Assembly: GCA_951406725.2 (NCBI GenBank)
Contig: OX597821.1
Coordinates: forward strand, 35,650,001-35,714,000
Direction: 5' to 3'
DNA: 64,000 nucleotides
Source: Octopus vulgaris
Taxonomy: Eukaryota
Under the pieces are notes generated by a model that had not been told where the DNA came from, searched no databases, and saw nothing but the letters and a program-made list of their open reading frames with translations. Both the position numbers and the translations under genes were made by a program. Below are positions 8,449 through 60,603 of the stretch, one piece after another (within the stretch, counting starts at the first letter, position 1; each line of letters begins with the position of its first letter).

Positions 8449-8645
8449 TAGAAGAAATGAGGTAATCAGAAGATCGGATGGTTCATATTTACAGATATTT
8501 ATTTATATATTACATTTTTTACATATATATATCATATCATTCAGATCATTAGCGCTTTCTCCCATTCTAGTGGGGTTTTCAAATCAAAATAATTCCTTTG
8601 TGGGGAATTTTAATCATTTTATTGAGTTTCGTAGTGGTGTACTTA
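8449..8645 (-). mobile_element. Penelope-like short repeat with hammerhead-like motif (U3-A8 core)
   Basis: TA-flanked; minus strand TTGAAAA-cccca/tggga-GAAA-GCGC-TA followed by AATAAA. Confidence 0.5.
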
Positions 8646-8822
8646 CATATATATATGTAAGTACATATGTGTATGTACGCGCGCACGTGTGTGTGCTCGT
8701 GGCTGGGCTGTTACGGGTGCTGCAATCCTGGTATTAACATTATGGATTCGCAGCGAATATATCCATCGCAGAATTCGGGGTCCGGCGTATGACTCGGTAA
8801 AATCTTGTGATCCTTTTTGATG

Positions 8823-9362
8823 TATATCCCCAAAAGAAACCGGTATTTTCCAATATTTTATCCACTGACTTTTACGTGTTTACATTTTTATCACCTTCAA
8901 AGTGTTTTCCACTTGAAGCAATGCATCGGTCCAGGCGCAATTTTCCACTATTCGAAGCAGTGCAGGAATTCTTACGTGATGCCTTTTAACACCTCCGCCG
9001 TTTTTATCTTCACCTCATCCACATCTGCACATTCCCTAGTACCAGCTTCCGTCATCAGTGTCGACCTTCCAAAAAAAGGCCCGGATCAACTTCCAACTTT
9101 CAGTTCACGACACGCATTAGGTCATAACTGCTTTTGATCTTCCCTGAGCAAGCGATGCACAATTTTTGCTGCAACTCTTTTTATTTGCAATTCGTAGTTC
9201 AAAATTTGTTGGCAGGTGCTCCAGGACTTACCAATCACATCAACAAGTTCATCAGTTGTTCGATGACGGTCGTCCAAGATCAGTTTATGACTATTTATGT
9301 CGTTTTCTTTCGTTCAGGAGGTCGACGGTCGTCATGAATGAGTCTGGTCTTCAACCGACAAA
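8823..9362 (-). mobile_element. mariner transposase pseudogene, internally deleted
   Basis: SVEDQ..RPSTS..LILDDRHRTTDELVDVIGKSWSTCQQIL..KRVAAK joined to C-terminal ADVDEVK..RLDRCIASSGKHFEGDK; most of the DDD domain is missing. Confidence 0.8.
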
Positions 9363-9644
9363 AGAATTGTAAACTTATGTTTTAATTTAGTAGATTAATA
9401 CGTACATGCACACAAACACACATACGCATATGTATATATGTATGTATGTATGTATGTATGTATGTATGTATGTATGTATGTATGTATGTATGTATGTATG
9501 TATGTATGTATGTGTGTATGTATATATATATATATATATATATATATATATATATATATATATATATATATATATATATATATATATATATATATATATA
9601 TAAATATATGTATGTATGTATGTATTATATATATAGTCAATATG

Positions 9645-9845
9645 TGACCACGTGTGTATCGTTGGCGATTTTTTTCCTCCGTCTTCCCTTCCTTGGACCT
9701 TTCCTTTTCCTATGTTTCTGACGAAGAGCTCCGCCCGAAACGTTAAATCCTCCTTCTTTCTTTCCTTTCCCGAACGTCCAATAACACTATACTTGTTCTA
9801 CGTCCTCGCCTTGTTGCGTTTTTCTCTTTGTGTTTTCATGTTTAT
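9645..9845 (+). mobile_element. Penelope-like short repeat (same family as 60417-60603)
   Basis: about 180 bp homology to 60417-60603; flanked by (TA)n; contains a hammerhead motif. Confidence 0.75.
9714..9748 (+). ncRNA. minimal type-I hammerhead ribozyme, canonical core
   Basis: gttt-CTGACGA-a-gagc(tcc)gccc-GAAA-cg-TT-aaat; palindromic AACGTT stem III. Confidence 0.7.
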
Positions 9846-56544: not shown

Positions 56545-56878
56545 TTGTCTTCTGCTATAGCCTCGGGCCAACCAAAGCCTTGTGAGCTGATTTGGTACAC
56601 GGAAACTGAAAAAAGCCCGTCGTATATATATATATATATATATGTGTGTGTGTGTGTGTGTATGTTTGTGTGTCTGTGTCTGTCCCCCCAACATCGCTTG
56701 ACAACCGATGCTGGTGTGTTTATGTCCCCTAACTTAACGGTTCGGCAAAAGGGACCGGTAGAATAAGTACTAGGCTTACAAAGAATGAGTCCTGGGGTCG
56801 AATTGCTCGACTGGGGCGGTGATCCAGCATGACCACAGTCAAATAACTGAAAGAAGTGAAAGAGTATAGAGTAAAGAG
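56545..56878 (+). mobile_element. SINE family A, 5'-truncated
   Basis: TGTCTTCTGCTATAGCCTCGGGCC to AAAGAG tail. Confidence 0.9.
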
Positions 56879-58689
56879 ATACAAATGAAAATTTATTCTA
56901 TCCTCATACACTGGGTGTGTTTTCTTCTTCAATATTCAAGCAAAAAGAAGCACAATAAGTACAGTGAAACAAATATGTCTACACTGGTCACGCTCTTCAA
57001 AATAGCACCTACCACACAAACATCACCTACACGTCATGCAGTGAGAGCAGCAGGCGAAATAACAACGAAGCCCACATTACCGTTACCGCTACTACCAGCA
57101 GGCTGTAAGCAAATTGACGGAGACAACAGTTATTATTACCGACATCATTACTGCCTGACCCTCCACCATCAAAAGCATATCTTTATTACTCACATACTGT
57201 CACTTAAAGAACATATGCTCGTCAGGAAAGCTGGAATAGTTGCCATCCCTACGTAAGTGTATGCAAAAACAATGTTGGAAAGATGTGGGAGATTCCATAT
57301 GTTATATTAGAAATGGAAGTCAACATAGAATAGTGGTGGTCTTATGCCTCAATGAAGAGGAAATGAAAATATAGAGAATGCATATTTCTCCTTTGAGCAT
57401 CTATTATTACTATCCTAAATAGGATAGGGAGCAACAAAAGAAACTCTAAATGAAAATCTACTATGCCTGATGTTAATTATTTTAAATGAGTGTAGTTAGT
57501 GGGCAATAAGGCGTTCAAGACATTAGCGATTTATTGAGCTCCTTACATTTGAACTGCTCTTGCAACACACAATTAAAACCATCGATCCAAATCACCGACG
57601 TCGTTTAATCTATCAGAAGTTCAAGTGGATGCCAAATATCAAAGTGGTATATATACTGTGACATCAGTCAGCAGAATGCTTTGTACCTTTGGCAAGGGAG
57701 GTGAAAAGCTGTTTAGTGATCAATACAAACCCCTTCAAAATCAGCAACACCAGTAGCAAGAATAGCAGAATCAAACGCAGCAATAGGAACCGAATCATCA
57801 AGGATAACAGAAACCAAACACACAAATATGATAGCAAGCAATTTGAAAAATAGAAACTCTTAATAGTGTGTCCTCACTAAATTACGATAACAACTCTAAC
57901 ACAACCAATATACATTGACCGAACAGTTCCTTTCCCCTCGACATCCAGGGGATGGTGAATTGTAGTAAACCCTTACTATGTGAGGCAAGGGGGAAAATAC
58001 CCAATGGTGATCGTCCCATTGCGACATCAATGAATAAGAAAACCATCTACTAATCTCATAGCACAAGCCCCACCACAATATCTGATATAATAAAATGAGC
58101 CAGATCACAATCTACAATGACAGGAAAGCGTTTACTAGAACATAAACCACAAGGTGGAACCTCAGCAACATTAGCAAAAGGGGTTACAAATTTAAGAACA
58201 ATACCATACGCAGGATTATTCCTGATTTTTCCGTTTCCCGAAAGCAAAACGCATCATCGTCATCATCATCATCATCATCATCATCATATAGACAGAGCGA
58301 GACTGATACAAAGAGTTAGGAAAATTAGATATGTATATATGTATGCATCATTGCATGCGTGCATATGTGTGTGTGTGTGTATGTGTGTGTGTATGTATGT
58401 ATGAATGAATGAATGAATGAATGAATGAATGAATGAGTGAGTGACCGTAGTTGTGTTATCTCTTGTTAAGCAAAACTTTGATATAACATGCAGGTGGAAT
58501 ACAAGGAGATAAGACATGAAAATATTTGCTTCCCTTAGTAAAACATGATTATTGATTGTTTGAATTAATCAATTATACACATGTGTGTTTCCGTTATTTC
58601 TTGTTACTTAGATTTGAGAAACTCGCCTTTATACACAAAACCATATTACTGGTCAATTCACTAAAATGTTATGAAGGAAGCATACGCAT

Positions 58690-58967
58690 GCTGTTTGTTC
58701 CTTCTCGAGACATGCCTGGCTCGTATAGGTTCCTCACCTGGACGGGATGCCGGTCCGTTGCAGGTGAGCTGCAAGATGCAGGAGGAAAGAGTGAGAGAAA
58801 GTTGTGACGAATGAGTCAGCAGAAGTTCGCCATTATCTTCTGCCGGAGCCGCGTGGAACTTAGGTGTTTCGCTCATAAACACACACATCGACCGGCTTGA
58901 GATTCGAACCCGCGATCCCTCGACTGCGAGTCCGCTGCTCTAACCACTAGGCCATGTGCCTCCACAC
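58690..58967 (-). mobile_element. tRNA-SINE with family B head and Meta-domain-like 3' half
   Basis: TGGCCTAGTGGTTAG / GGTTCGAATC boxes; CACAACTTTCTCTCACTCTT shared with family B; then CCTGCAACGGACCGGCATCCCGTCCAGG; imperfect TSD AAGCATA(CG/GA)CAT. Confidence 0.85.
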
Positions 58968-60416
58968 AAGCATAGACATATATTCTAACTGTTAATTCAG
59001 TTGTAATAGATAAAATTCAATAGTAAGTATTAACTCGCTTCCAGATATCCTTGTGACTAATGCAGCTGCTGTCTTGTTCTGATGACAGAGTGTTAACTTT
59101 TTGGCAACCAAATATCTATTGATGACGTAATAACTCCAAACTCTCCGAACATTACATATTTGGAAGAACCAGCATGAATTCTAAATAGCAGGTTGAACAG
59201 CGTTATAAATTATGCTGTCCAGATTGACAGACTGGAATCGAATTTGTATTCAAATCTTTGAGTTATATATAATTATCTGCGAAGAAATAACGAAAATGAT
59301 ATTAATACGATGCCTTGCTAAATTAGAACCGATATTTTTCTTGAAGAAAGAACAAGTTTTCAAGTAATTTATTATCTTCCGCTCCAGAAGTTACTGTCAA
59401 ACTTCGTTCTTGGCTCTTTGGAACAGAACAATTTATAGAAAATAAATGAAGATTTTTCGGAACAAGTAATAATTTATTGTAGATTTCAGAACTCTTTTAT
59501 TAAAACACTGGTGGCCCATAATTCACTAAGAGTGATATAAATGGTTTTGAGGAATAATTTCATGATCATATGTGCGATGGTCTGGATATAAATAATCGAA
59601 TTCTAAGAATTCTTCCAAATCAATATCGGATACAAAAAAATGATAATTCTTGCTTTTCGCTTTCATTTTCAATCGCCTTAAATTGGTAGCTACAAGGATA
59701 GCTTAATGAATAAATATGTTTATTTCCATTTCCTTCATAAAGTGTTTTATGGAATATCTAAATGGAGACAAGACACACACAAATACACACATACACACAT
59801 GCACGCACGTACACACACACTTACACACAAACACGCACACGCAAATACACTGCAATATACCTGCTTCACAAAATTCCATGTGCATTCTTGTATGTTTGAA
59901 GGGAATCCATGAGGAAGATTCGTATTATTGTTCAAGCATTCTTTGTTTGAATTCCTCAGTTGGGTATATTATGGACGGCATAGAGGGAACAAAGCAAAAT
60001 AGGAGAGTTTTTTAATAAAATATTTCATCACATCATCTAATGCGCGGTTCATTAACAGACATTAAATACAGGTACATAATTTAGTTTGTATAAACAATTG
60101 ACAAGCATAATACCTCTTCAAATGCTCCCATGTGTATGCGCTATGAAAGGTAAATACTTAAACAGACACTATTTTTCCAAACCCTTAACTAAAGGTGAAT
60201 AAATGAATGCGCACGCACGCACACTCACACACAGACACACACACACACACACACACACACACACACAAACACATTGGTAATAATTTTATAGTCGTGCACC
60301 AGTCCATACACGAATAGGTCGAAACGTTCGTTGTGAATAAAGACACACAGTAATTAAGCTCCATTTTGTTCCTCTTATGTATTTATATATATATATATAT
60401 ATATATATATATATAT

Positions 60417-60603
60417 ATGGCGATTTTTTTCCTCTGTCTTCTCTTCTCTGGATCTTTCCTTCTCCTATGTTTCCGACGAAGAACTCCGCTCGAAACGTTA
60501 AACCCTCCTTCTTTCTTTCTTTCCTGAGCGTCCAATAATACTATATTTGTTCCACGTCCTCGCGTTGTTGTGTTTTTTTGTTCTTTCTTGTTTGGATTAA
60601 CTT
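60417..60603 (+). mobile_element. Penelope-like short repeat (family of 9645-9845), hammerhead mutated
   Basis: gttt-CCGACGA-a-gaac(tcc)gctc-GAAA-cg-TT-aaac at 60469-60503; inserted in (TA)n. Confidence 0.75.

What the first reader, a model, noticed from the sequence alone, without database searches (positions are those of the whole stretch)
8545..60503. Seven minimal type-I hammerhead-ribozyme folds whose core co-varies at the 3-8 pair (C-G, U-A, G-C)
Seen: six distinct short repeat types (seven copies), mostly embedded in (TA)n or (TAA)n, share one architecture: stem I, a 7-nt core (usually plus one extra base), stem II, GAAA, a short usually palindromic loop (AACGTT, GCGC, AAATTT, AAAATATTTT, CTCGAG), UH, stem I. 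Copies are at 8545-8589(-), 9714-9748(+), 20083-20119(+), 41322-41357(-), 44576-44620(+), 51771-51821(-) and 60469-60503(+). Cores read CTGACGA, CCGANGA (twice), CTGTAGA, TTGAAAA (twice) and GTGAACA, so positions 3 and 8 are always Watson-Crick complementary. Established: the hammerhead C3-G8 tertiary pair is needed for catalysis, and Penelope-like elements and retrozymes carry minimal HHRs with palindromic stem III that can work as dimers. Inference: this genome hosts a diversified, microsatellite-associated family of ribozyme-bearing non-autonomous retroelements. A CUGANGA-only search would miss most of them.
Basis: partly seen in the sequence, partly recalled or inferred. Interest (0 to 1): 0.82.

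Follow-up and report, generated by a model that had tools for sequence, protein, structure and literature searches.

The report
Penelope retroelement hammerheads with swapped cores
These seven short repeats are decayed copies from Penelope-like jumping genes and their short derivatives, each carrying a hammerhead RNA fold that is predicted, not shown, to cut itself; one key internal base pair occurs as C-G, U-A or G-C in different families, and I could not find the G-C form reported from nature.

Summary
Observation confirmed at family level; interpretation partly right. All seven sites exist and belong to six high-copy families (A–F) of a 2.8-Gb animal genome. Six of the seven window copies are decayed, but the family majorities keep the fold. 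With positions 3 and 8 left free, 33 of 35 hits in 1.0 Mb of unselected genome pair Watson-Crick (21 C-G, 9 U-A, 3 G-C); reversed sequence gives 0 hits.

They are not one non-autonomous family. B and D are 3′ ends of autonomous RT + GIY-YIG Penelope-like elements (D follows the endonuclease in 23 of 30 loci). E is a 352-nt retrozyme-type unit. A, C and F are short elements with fairly fixed 5′ ends and no linked ORF found.

Hammerheads in Penelope elements and natural U3-A8 are published. Apparently new are a natural G3-C8 core (3,513 exact copies) and U at position 6 in family D (43 of 46 copies), whose N7 and H17 vary freely.

Cleavage is untested. Inserted copies mostly span the cut site, and RNA reads show no ends there. 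New variant of a known kind.

The parts
8448..8640 (-). Family B: 5'-truncated 3' end of an autonomous Penelope-like element; hammerhead-like motif 8545-8589 with U3 (8582) and A8 (8577), C.A mismatch at the base of stem II, weak proximal stem I
   Evidence: L284 and L286 are colinear from the RT-GIY-YIG ORF to this end at 91.6%; stem I variants
9636..9843 (+). Family A, older copy (86% to the 60418 copy); motif 9714-9748 with C3 (9718), U4, G8 (9723); one stem-II pair broken; 5' end approximate
19965..20079 (-). Family C, inverted partial copy: 3' arm plus a tail of about 56 nt
   Evidence: query 57-115 is the reverse complement of 192-247; L082 and L070 show the tail following the arm
20071..20211 (+). 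Family C, direct copy; motif 20083-20119 with U3 (20086) and A8 (20091); A13 changed to G in this copy; lies in (TAA/ATT)n
35822..35912 (+).
41258..41421 (-). Family D: 3' end of an autonomous Penelope-like element; motif 41322-41357 with C3 (41353), U6 (41350), G8 (41348); stem-III palindrome broken in this copy
44498..44560 (-). Family E, inverted tail segment; the whole insertion 44498-44784 is flanked by a 13-bp direct repeat (44485-44497 and 44785-44797)
44566..44784 (+). Family E, direct part of a 352-nt tandem unit; motif 44576-44620 with C3 (44582), C4, G8 (44587), extended stem I, 8-nt palindromic stem III; stem II damaged in this copy
   Evidence: (L144 array)
51636..51838 (-). Family F, short element of about 205 nt; motif 51771-51821 with G3 (51814) and C8 (51809), 7-bp stem I, 5-bp stem II, palindromic stem III; the only window copy that passes the descriptor
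60418..60602 (+). Family A, younger copy in (TA)n; motif 60469-60503 with C3 (60473), C4, G8 (60478); one stem-II pair broken

Best explanation
The seven repeats are decayed insertions from Penelope-like retroelements (PLEs) and their short derivatives, and each family carries a type-I hammerhead fold, likely kept by selection in its source elements and predicted to cut RNA slowly as a dimer, whose 3-8 pair is C-G, U-A or G-C depending on the family. Shown: B and D are 3' ends of RT + GIY-YIG elements; E is a 352-nt head-to-tail unit; C, E and F make inverted 5' copies, and C and E carry an optional tail; all have a fixed 3' end about 70-170 nt past the predicted cut. Inferred, by analogy with the Anolis PLE: the PLE protein nicks AT-rich or (TA)n DNA and starts reverse transcription inside the RNA just downstream of the ribozyme, at one of two sites (hence the tail). 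Copying stops at a preferred 5' point 50-110 nt upstream of the cut, likely the transcript start, or runs on into the ORF, or round the unit in E. Because most copies span the cut site, the template was likely uncut or re-ligated RNA. Inferred: stem III forms only between two ribozyme copies through its palindrome, and cleavage likely needs the PLE protein, which would explain why slow cores (G3-C8, U3-A8, C4, U6) are tolerated.
For: Covariation with 3 and 8 free: 33 of 35 hits in 1.0 Mb, reversed control 0; 11 of 11 multi-copy families Watson-Crick (5 C-G, 5 U-A, 1 G-C). Relaxing G5, A9, G12, A13, A14 or A15.1 adds only chance-like, microsatellite or single decayed hits. In 46 D copies not chosen by the D query, N7 is A17/C14/G9/U6 and H17 is A34/U8/C2/G1, while positions 3, 4, 5, 8, 9, 12-15.1 and 16.1 match in 42-46 of 46: the varying sites are the ones a hammerhead leaves free. 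PLE link: D lies 0.3-1.2 kb downstream of the endonuclease region on the same strand in 23 of 30 loci; B ends the L284/L286 element; three further autonomous families carry such motifs at their 3' ends. The E tail-to-start junction is in 22 locus rows, about 19 distinct places. Co-folding two natural copies of E or H gives the dimeric hammerhead fold as the best structure. Literature: PMC4209133 (minimal hammerheads in PLE repeats, dimer model, low activity); PMC11167929 (internal RT start, tail, protein-assisted cleavage, uncut RNA as main template, C3G/G8C partial rescue).
Against: No cleavage assay. RNA-seq reads laid on a natural F copy show no end pile-up and no depth drop at the predicted cut, though these are fragmented cDNA libraries of a coded organism that may be another species, equal in both directions and mostly read-through. 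5' ends of genomic copies are not enriched at the cut: D 3 of 39 within -1 to +8, A 1 of 30, F 1 of 11, E 0 of 11. For A, C, D and F the dimeric stem III is not in the best co-fold. B has only 2 bp of proximal stem I. No ORF link was found for A, C, E or F. Families are related, so pair counts overstate independent events; a six-sequence endonuclease tree supports at least two switches, not more.
Confidence: 0.8

Rival explanations
1. The fold is kept as a structural element (a binding or folding site for the PLE protein, or part of the promoter and RT-start region) and some families, D (U6) and B above all, no longer cleave.
For: U6 in 43 of 46 D copies, and only 257 exact genome matches to the A6 form; the natural A6C variant is slow (PMC3088659). 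Templates were mostly uncut. Ribozyme mutants do not affect insertion in vitro and no RNA ends were seen at the cut in Anolis (PMC11167929).
Against: Watson-Crick 3-8 covariation, U at 16.1 and avoidance of G at 17 (1 of 46 D copies) are what the catalytic fold requires, and are kept across proteins only 27-58% identical.
Confidence: 0.3
2. A, C and F are true non-autonomous, SINE-like elements with their own internal promoter, rather than short products of autonomous PLEs.
For: None of the 30 best copies of A or F shares more than about 45 nt of non-repeat sequence upstream, apart from inverted copies of itself, whereas 5 of 30 D copies extend. 16 of 30 unselected A copies start within -111 to -99 of the cut. 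No ORF link found.
Against: D, which is part of an autonomous PLE, also has a preferred 5' start (12 of 39 copies between -98 and -84), so a fixed 5' end does not prove independence. Only about 1.9 Mb of a 2.8-Gb genome was examined.
Confidence: 0.5
3. All six families are classical non-LTR retrozymes: tandem units that self-cleave into monomers, circularise and are copied from circles.
For: E (352 nt, five copies in L144) and H (362 nt, L202) are head-to-tail units of the size reported for mussel and axolotl retrozymes (PMC7229834).
Against: B and D are PLE ends. The D trimer in L295 looks like a local duplication that includes flanking DNA. No head-to-tail unit was seen for A, C or F, and no 3'-to-5' joint is among the 15 of 23 joints listed for F reads.
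Confidence: 0.1
4. Chance folds in AT-rich repeats, picked out by eye.
For: The window alone is not enriched over shuffles, and six of seven copies fail a strict descriptor.
Against: Genome sample 35 hits against 0 reversed; family majorities repair the defects; the same motif type lies at the ends of five autonomous PLE families.
Confidence: 0.02

Closest known systems
Minimal type-I hammerheads in the pseudo-LTRs of Penelope-like elements (Cervera and de la Pena 2014, PMC4209133)
   Same: Short stem I, unpaired base after A9, G10.1-C11.1, palindromic stem III, many divergent families per genome, mostly solo copies; natural U3-A8 cores with the same sequences (UUGAUAA, UUGAAAA) in Schistosoma PLEs (main text; supplement file 2 part 2).
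   Different: Here also G3-C8 (F), U6 (D), C4 (A, E, G, J and the P282 family), and a class with an N.N mismatch at the base of stem II plus a longer palindrome. None of the core variants G3-C8, U6 or C4 is in the alignment rows I read, which list two molluscs and no cephalopod.
Non-LTR retrozymes of animals (Cervera and de la Pena 2020, PMC7229834; Li, Clavereau and Pollet 2026, 10.64898/2026.07.22.740005)
   Same: E and H are 350-360-nt head-to-tail units with a type-I hammerhead; axolotl HHR_Amex2 also has a mismatch at the base of stem II; PLE origin is proposed in the 2026 preprint.
   Different: E has C4 and H has U3-A8; circular RNA was not tested; E insertions show PLE-type inversions and an optional tail.
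Poseidon PLE of Anolis (Frangieh et al. 2024, PMC11167929)
   Same: Fixed 3' ends downstream of the ribozyme, optional tail, AT-rich targets, uncut RNA as template.
   Different: There C3G/G8C is an engineered partial rescue; here G3-C8 is the natural state of a family with at least 3,513 copies. The proteins here have a cysteine linker of the Neptune/Nematis type.
Natural hammerhead core variants (Perreault et al. 2011, PMC3088659)
   Same: U3-A8 covariation, a position-6 variant (A6C) and U4C (viroid) occur in nature.
   Different: Those are rare examples; here variants are the majority state of families with thousands of copies. G3-C8 and A6U are not in the passages I read (its Figure 5 itself was not visible).

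Membership tests
Minimal type-I hammerhead of PLEs | Core positions 3-9 with a Watson-Crick 3-8 pair, then GAAA and UH | tested here: met
   All six majorities; 33 of 35 unselected hits
Minimal type-I hammerhead of PLEs | Published core letters CUGANGA or UUGANAA | tested here: not met
   Met by B, C and part of A; F has G3-C8, D has U6, E and about half of A have C4
Minimal type-I hammerhead of PLEs | Unpaired base after A9 and G10.1-C11.1 | tested here: inconclusive
   Met in A, C, D, F; B and E have a mismatch at the base of stem II instead
Minimal type-I hammerhead of PLEs | Short palindromic stem III | tested here: met
   All six majorities; dimer fold predicted as best structure for E, H and B only
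Minimal type-I hammerhead of PLEs | Stem I of 3 bp or more at the junction | tested here: inconclusive
   F 7, E 5 plus extension, A 4, D 4, C 3; B only 2 before a mismatch
Minimal type-I hammerhead of PLEs | Located in the terminal repeat of a PLE | tested here: inconclusive
   Met for B and D (23 of 30); no ORF link found for A, C, E, F
Hammerhead ribozyme | Site-specific self-cleavage after H17 | not testable with these tools
   No assay; the RNA-seq lay on F shows no ends but cannot decide
EN+ Penelope-like element (source of B and D) | [quoted passage not shown] | tested here: met
   B source: RVT_1 and GIY-YIG over the cut-off. D source: RVT_1 over the cut-off, GIY-YIG only weak by Pfam (E 0.006) but aligned with the others
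EN+ Penelope-like element | Inverted 5'-truncated copies and an optional 30-40-nt tail | tested here: met
   Inversions in C, E, F; tails of about 56 nt in C and 40 nt in E
EN+ Penelope-like element | Partial tandem forming pseudo-LTRs on both sides of the ORF | tested here: inconclusive
   Seen for the 781-aa family (L276, L279); not seen for the B source in L284 and L286; not examined for D
Neptune clade | CX2-5CxxC linker before the endonuclease, and placement in the clade | tested here: inconclusive
   Linker present in six aligned proteins; shared with Nematis per Craig et al.; no tree with reference elements
Non-LTR retrozyme | Head-to-tail unit of 150-450 nt with a type-I hammerhead in each unit | tested here: inconclusive
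   Met for E (352 nt) and H (362 nt); not seen for A, B, C, D, F
Non-LTR retrozyme | Expressed as monomeric circular RNA | not tested

The most novel reading that the evidence does not exclude
This genome holds a natural G3-C8 hammerhead, the swapped tertiary pair I found only as an engineered partial rescue, amplified to thousands of copies, and its most numerous autonomous PLE runs on a U6 core. Both would be active, protein-assisted ribozymes: the PLE protein would relax the core so far that about half of the families left C3-G8, and animal genomes would hold many PLE ribozymes that CUGANGA-based searches miss.
Probability: 0.4. Interest if true: 0.68.

Novelty: new variant of a known kind. 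Interest (0 to 1): 0.47.

Why it matters
If the G3-C8 and U6 forms cleave, they give natural confirmation that position 3-8 needs pairing rather than particular bases, and show that A6 can be replaced in a successful element. They also offer matched natural substrates for an open question: what PLE hammerheads do in vivo, given that they are slow and that uncut RNA is the template in vitro. Practically, hammerhead descriptors should free positions 3/8, 4 and 6: only 2 of 29 and 2 of 8 hits in the two samples had the textbook core. About 40 ribozyme-spanning copies of A, C, D, E and F per Mb imply roughly 100,000 in this genome, a rough extrapolation. A 2026 repeat annotation of Octopus vulgaris lists 31 recently active Penelope-like families and about 900 SINE families and does not mention ribozymes in its main text (PMC13282606); some short repeats of that kind may be PLE ends.

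Tried and rejected
Rfam scan of the window: only microsatellite-driven miRNA noise among the 150 rows shown. Repeat finder: swamped by simple repeats. Window-only descriptor: not above shuffles. No PLE ORF in the window.

Search for a C3-G8 or U3-A8 sister subfamily of F: 9 double-changed matches against 3,513 G3-C8; none is C-G or U-A, 4 are A-U, consistent with decay after insertion. So no compensatory switch within F was found.

ORF link for E through a PLE fragment next to L123: 7 matches, none of the other 6 followed by E; rejected as neighbourhood. D trimer in L295 as a retrozyme unit: rejected as a likely local duplication. Excess of 5' ends at the cut site: not found.

Sequencing runs for F: no RNA holder listed. 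The read lay used three raw RNA runs of coded organism C (about 6% of each read) and one contig set; no DNA run or silent stretch was laid as control. The scripted target-site-duplication test worked for C (11 of 19, of which one is a microsatellite and three are one duplicated region) and failed for F (both ends parsed in 7 of 30, none scored); repeats at F ends were seen by eye only in L159, L166 and L173.

Genome-wide count of the U6 form of D was not made; only the A6 form was counted. The unselected sample stayed at 1.0 Mb. Earlier-findings look-ups gave nothing on this genome or sequence. Two papers that may already list such variants, Lunse et al. 2017 and Arkhipova et al. 2017, are not held.

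
Full report
CONTEXT. The window is G000:C8:35650001-35714000 of a 2.8-Gb genome in 227 contigs, rich in (TA)n and other simple repeats. 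It looks like an octopus genome; that is my inference from size, contig number and repeat content and was not tested.

OBSERVATION. All seven motifs are present as described. I name the families A (9714, 60469), B (8545), C (20083), D (41322), E (44576) and F (51771). Taken alone the copies are unconvincing. A descriptor on the window is not above shuffles, Rfam shows no hammerhead among the 150 of 328 rows listed, and only the F copy passes my final descriptor. Each is, however, a member of a large dispersed family, with 1,208-3,943 first-look candidates per search. The majority of the 30 best copies repairs the defects in A, C, D, E and F. B keeps a 2-bp proximal stem I followed by a mismatch in all 29 copies parsed, so B is the weakest case.

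COVARIATION TEST. I fetched 100 stretches of 10 kb at round coordinates and scanned them with positions 3, 6, 7 and 8 free. The first version gave 29 hits in 0.8 Mb, 26 Watson-Crick at 3-8, against 1 hit in reversed sequence. Requiring a palindromic stem III gave 27 of 27, reversed 0, and four Markov shuffles gave 8 hits with 3 Watson-Crick. In the 0.2 Mb fetched later, 6 of 8 were Watson-Crick; over 1.0 Mb the count is 33 of 35 (21 C-G, 9 U-A, 3 G-C). Clustering 184 hits from 1.65 Mb gave 11 multi-copy families, all with a Watson-Crick majority: 5 C-G, 5 U-A, 1 G-C. Random re-pairing of those letters would give this with probability 3.6e-4, but families are related (A and D 74%; E and J share 26 nt), so this is not a count of independent events. 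A six-sequence tree of endonuclease regions puts a C-G family sister to the U-A family B (support 1.00) and implies at least two switches; it is a small tree.

SELECTION INSIDE A FAMILY. In 46 D copies not chosen by the D query (23 of them came from loci chosen by the endonuclease), N7 is A17/C14/G9/U6 and H17 is A34/U8/C2/G1, while 3, 4, 5, 8, 9, 12-15.1 and 16.1 match in 42-46 of 46. Position 6 is U in 43 of 46; the A6 form has 257 exact matches genome-wide (the U6 form was not counted). In A, position 4 is C in 12 and U in 11 of 23. F has 3,513 exact matches to a 24-nt pattern with G3-C8 and 9 with both positions changed, none to C-G or U-A.

WHAT THE ELEMENTS ARE. [quoted passage not shown] These are Penelope-like elements with a cysteine linker of the Neptune/Nematis type (feature from Craig et al.). 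B is the exact 3' end of one such element: L284 and L286 align at 91.6% from before the ORF to the end of B, and B copies are 5'-truncated at staggered points up to 1.25 kb upstream. D is the 3' end of another: it follows the endonuclease region on the same strand in 23 of 30 loci. Three further autonomous families end in such motifs. The 781-aa family has U3-A8 (17 of 19 locus rows, three pairs of which are the same place), the L282 family has C3-G8 with C4, and the L294 minus-strand element has U3-A8. E is a 352-nt head-to-tail unit (five copies in L144); its tail-to-start junction is in 22 locus rows, about 19 places. A, C and F have fairly fixed 5' ends and no ORF link in the sequence examined. 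C, E and F often carry an inverted partial copy at the 5' side, C and E have optional tails, C has 12-16-bp target duplications, and the window's E insertion has a 13-bp one. The 3' ends abut (TA)n or (TAA)n far more often than chance, but in a majority only for A, B and D.

HOW IT LIKELY WORKS. The steps below are inferred. In the Anolis PLE the protein cuts AT-rich DNA on both strands, starts reverse transcription at two sites inside the RNA, which explains the tail, and uses uncut RNA; its hammerhead cleaves only with protein present, and C3G/G8C partly rescues it (PMC11167929). The anatomy here fits: fixed 3' ends 70-170 nt past the predicted cut, tails, inversions and AT-rich targets. Of the copies in the 1.0-Mb sample, 13 of 15 A, 7 of 7 C, 17 of 19 D, 2 of 3 E and 3 of 6 F span the ribozyme, and 5' ends are not enriched at the cut. 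So the template was uncut or re-ligated. Preferred 5' ends at about -105 (A, 16 of 30) and -90 (D, 12 of 39) likely mark transcript starts. Short copies would then arise when RT starts at the first site of a transcript that begins in the terminal repeat; this would also explain A, C and F without a separate non-autonomous lineage, but I cannot decide between the two. Cleavage likely needs two ribozyme copies paired through the palindrome. Co-folding gives that structure for E, H and B but not for A, C, D or F.

RNA. No RNA holder was listed for F. Three raw RNA-seq runs of coded organism C, which may be a related species, gave 1,684, 1,279 and 1,241 reads on a natural F copy. They were equal in both directions, 86-87% ran on into unlike sequence, and there was no end pile-up and no depth drop at the predicted cut after L159:1561. 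No difference at core positions 1525-1531 is among the 40 rows shown (13 not shown). This looks like read-through of embedded monomers and neither supports nor excludes cleavage.

COMPARISON WITH WHAT IS KNOWN. Minimal hammerheads in PLE repeats, their dimer model, low activity and a U3-A8 variant are in PMC4209133 (read: main text parts 1-2 of 4; supplement file 2 part 2 of 3 and a term search; file 1 could not be searched). U3-A8, A6C and U4C in nature are in PMC3088659 (passages; figures not visible). Retrozymes: PMC7229834 (passages) and 10.64898/2026.07.22.740005 (part 1 of 5 and passages). PLE anatomy and microsatellite bias: 10.1101/2021.04.23.441226 (passages). PMC11167929: parts 1-2 of 4. 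G3-C8 appears only as an engineered variant in PMC11167929 and PMC3884650 (passages). Searches for G3-C8, C3G/G8C, A6U and octopus with hammerhead returned no natural case in the listings and passages seen; PMC8495972 and PMC11662667 were seen as listings only. PMC13282606 has no 'ribozyme' or 'hammerhead' in its main text (term search). PMC6765202 (passages, section 11 part 2) and PMC11014351 (passages) added background only. Lunse et al. 2017, on small PLE-associated hammerhead variants, and Arkhipova et al. 2017 are not held; they or their supplements may already contain G3-C8 or U6 rows, which is the main risk to the novelty claim.

VERDICT. A real, selected RNA fold of a known kind, in a known setting. 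What appears new is the natural G3-C8 family, the U6 core in a very successful autonomous element, and the breadth of core variants in one genome. Interest 0.47; 0.68 if those variants are shown to cleave with protein help (probability about 0.4).

Noticed in passing
L279:567-2003 (+), also L276, L277, L278, L288: The young 781-aa PLE family has a second, upstream ORF of up to 479 aa with no Pfam match that overlaps the start of the RT frame. Canonical endonuclease-bearing PLEs are described as single-ORF.
   Followed up: no
L232, L205, L208, L337 (G); L202, L237, L350 (H); L198, L209 (I); L225 (J); L166, L198 (K): Further hammerhead-bearing repeat families found in the genome sample; H is a 362-nt tandem unit with U3-A8, and several have a mismatch at the base of stem II with a longer stem-III palindrome.
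   Followed up: partly
window 35822-35912 (+): D 3' fragment that begins 4 nt after the predicted cut site; could derive from a cleaved RNA, but such ends are not enriched overall.
   Followed up: yes
window 1695-1748 and 12657-12708 (-): Short matches (79-81%) to the distal end of the family G query, without the ribozyme.
   Followed up: no
window 16705-16948, 25952-26159, 33704-33942, 38805-39054, 48258-48479, 50726-51077, 52911-53266: An abundant 210-350-nt dispersed repeat, 77-89% alike between copies, in both orientations; looks like a SINE (recalled, not tested).
   Followed up: no
window 62943-63329 (-) and 38052-38414 (-): Open frames that resemble a LINE C-terminus and a Tc1/mariner transposase fragment (resemblance recalled, not searched).
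   Followed up: no
window 51636-51838 (-), family F ends: The first and last six bases of F are complementary and pair in the predicted fold of a whole natural copy.
   Followed up: no
window about 1990-2100: A run of N (assembly gap), seen as X in the ORF list.
   Followed up: no
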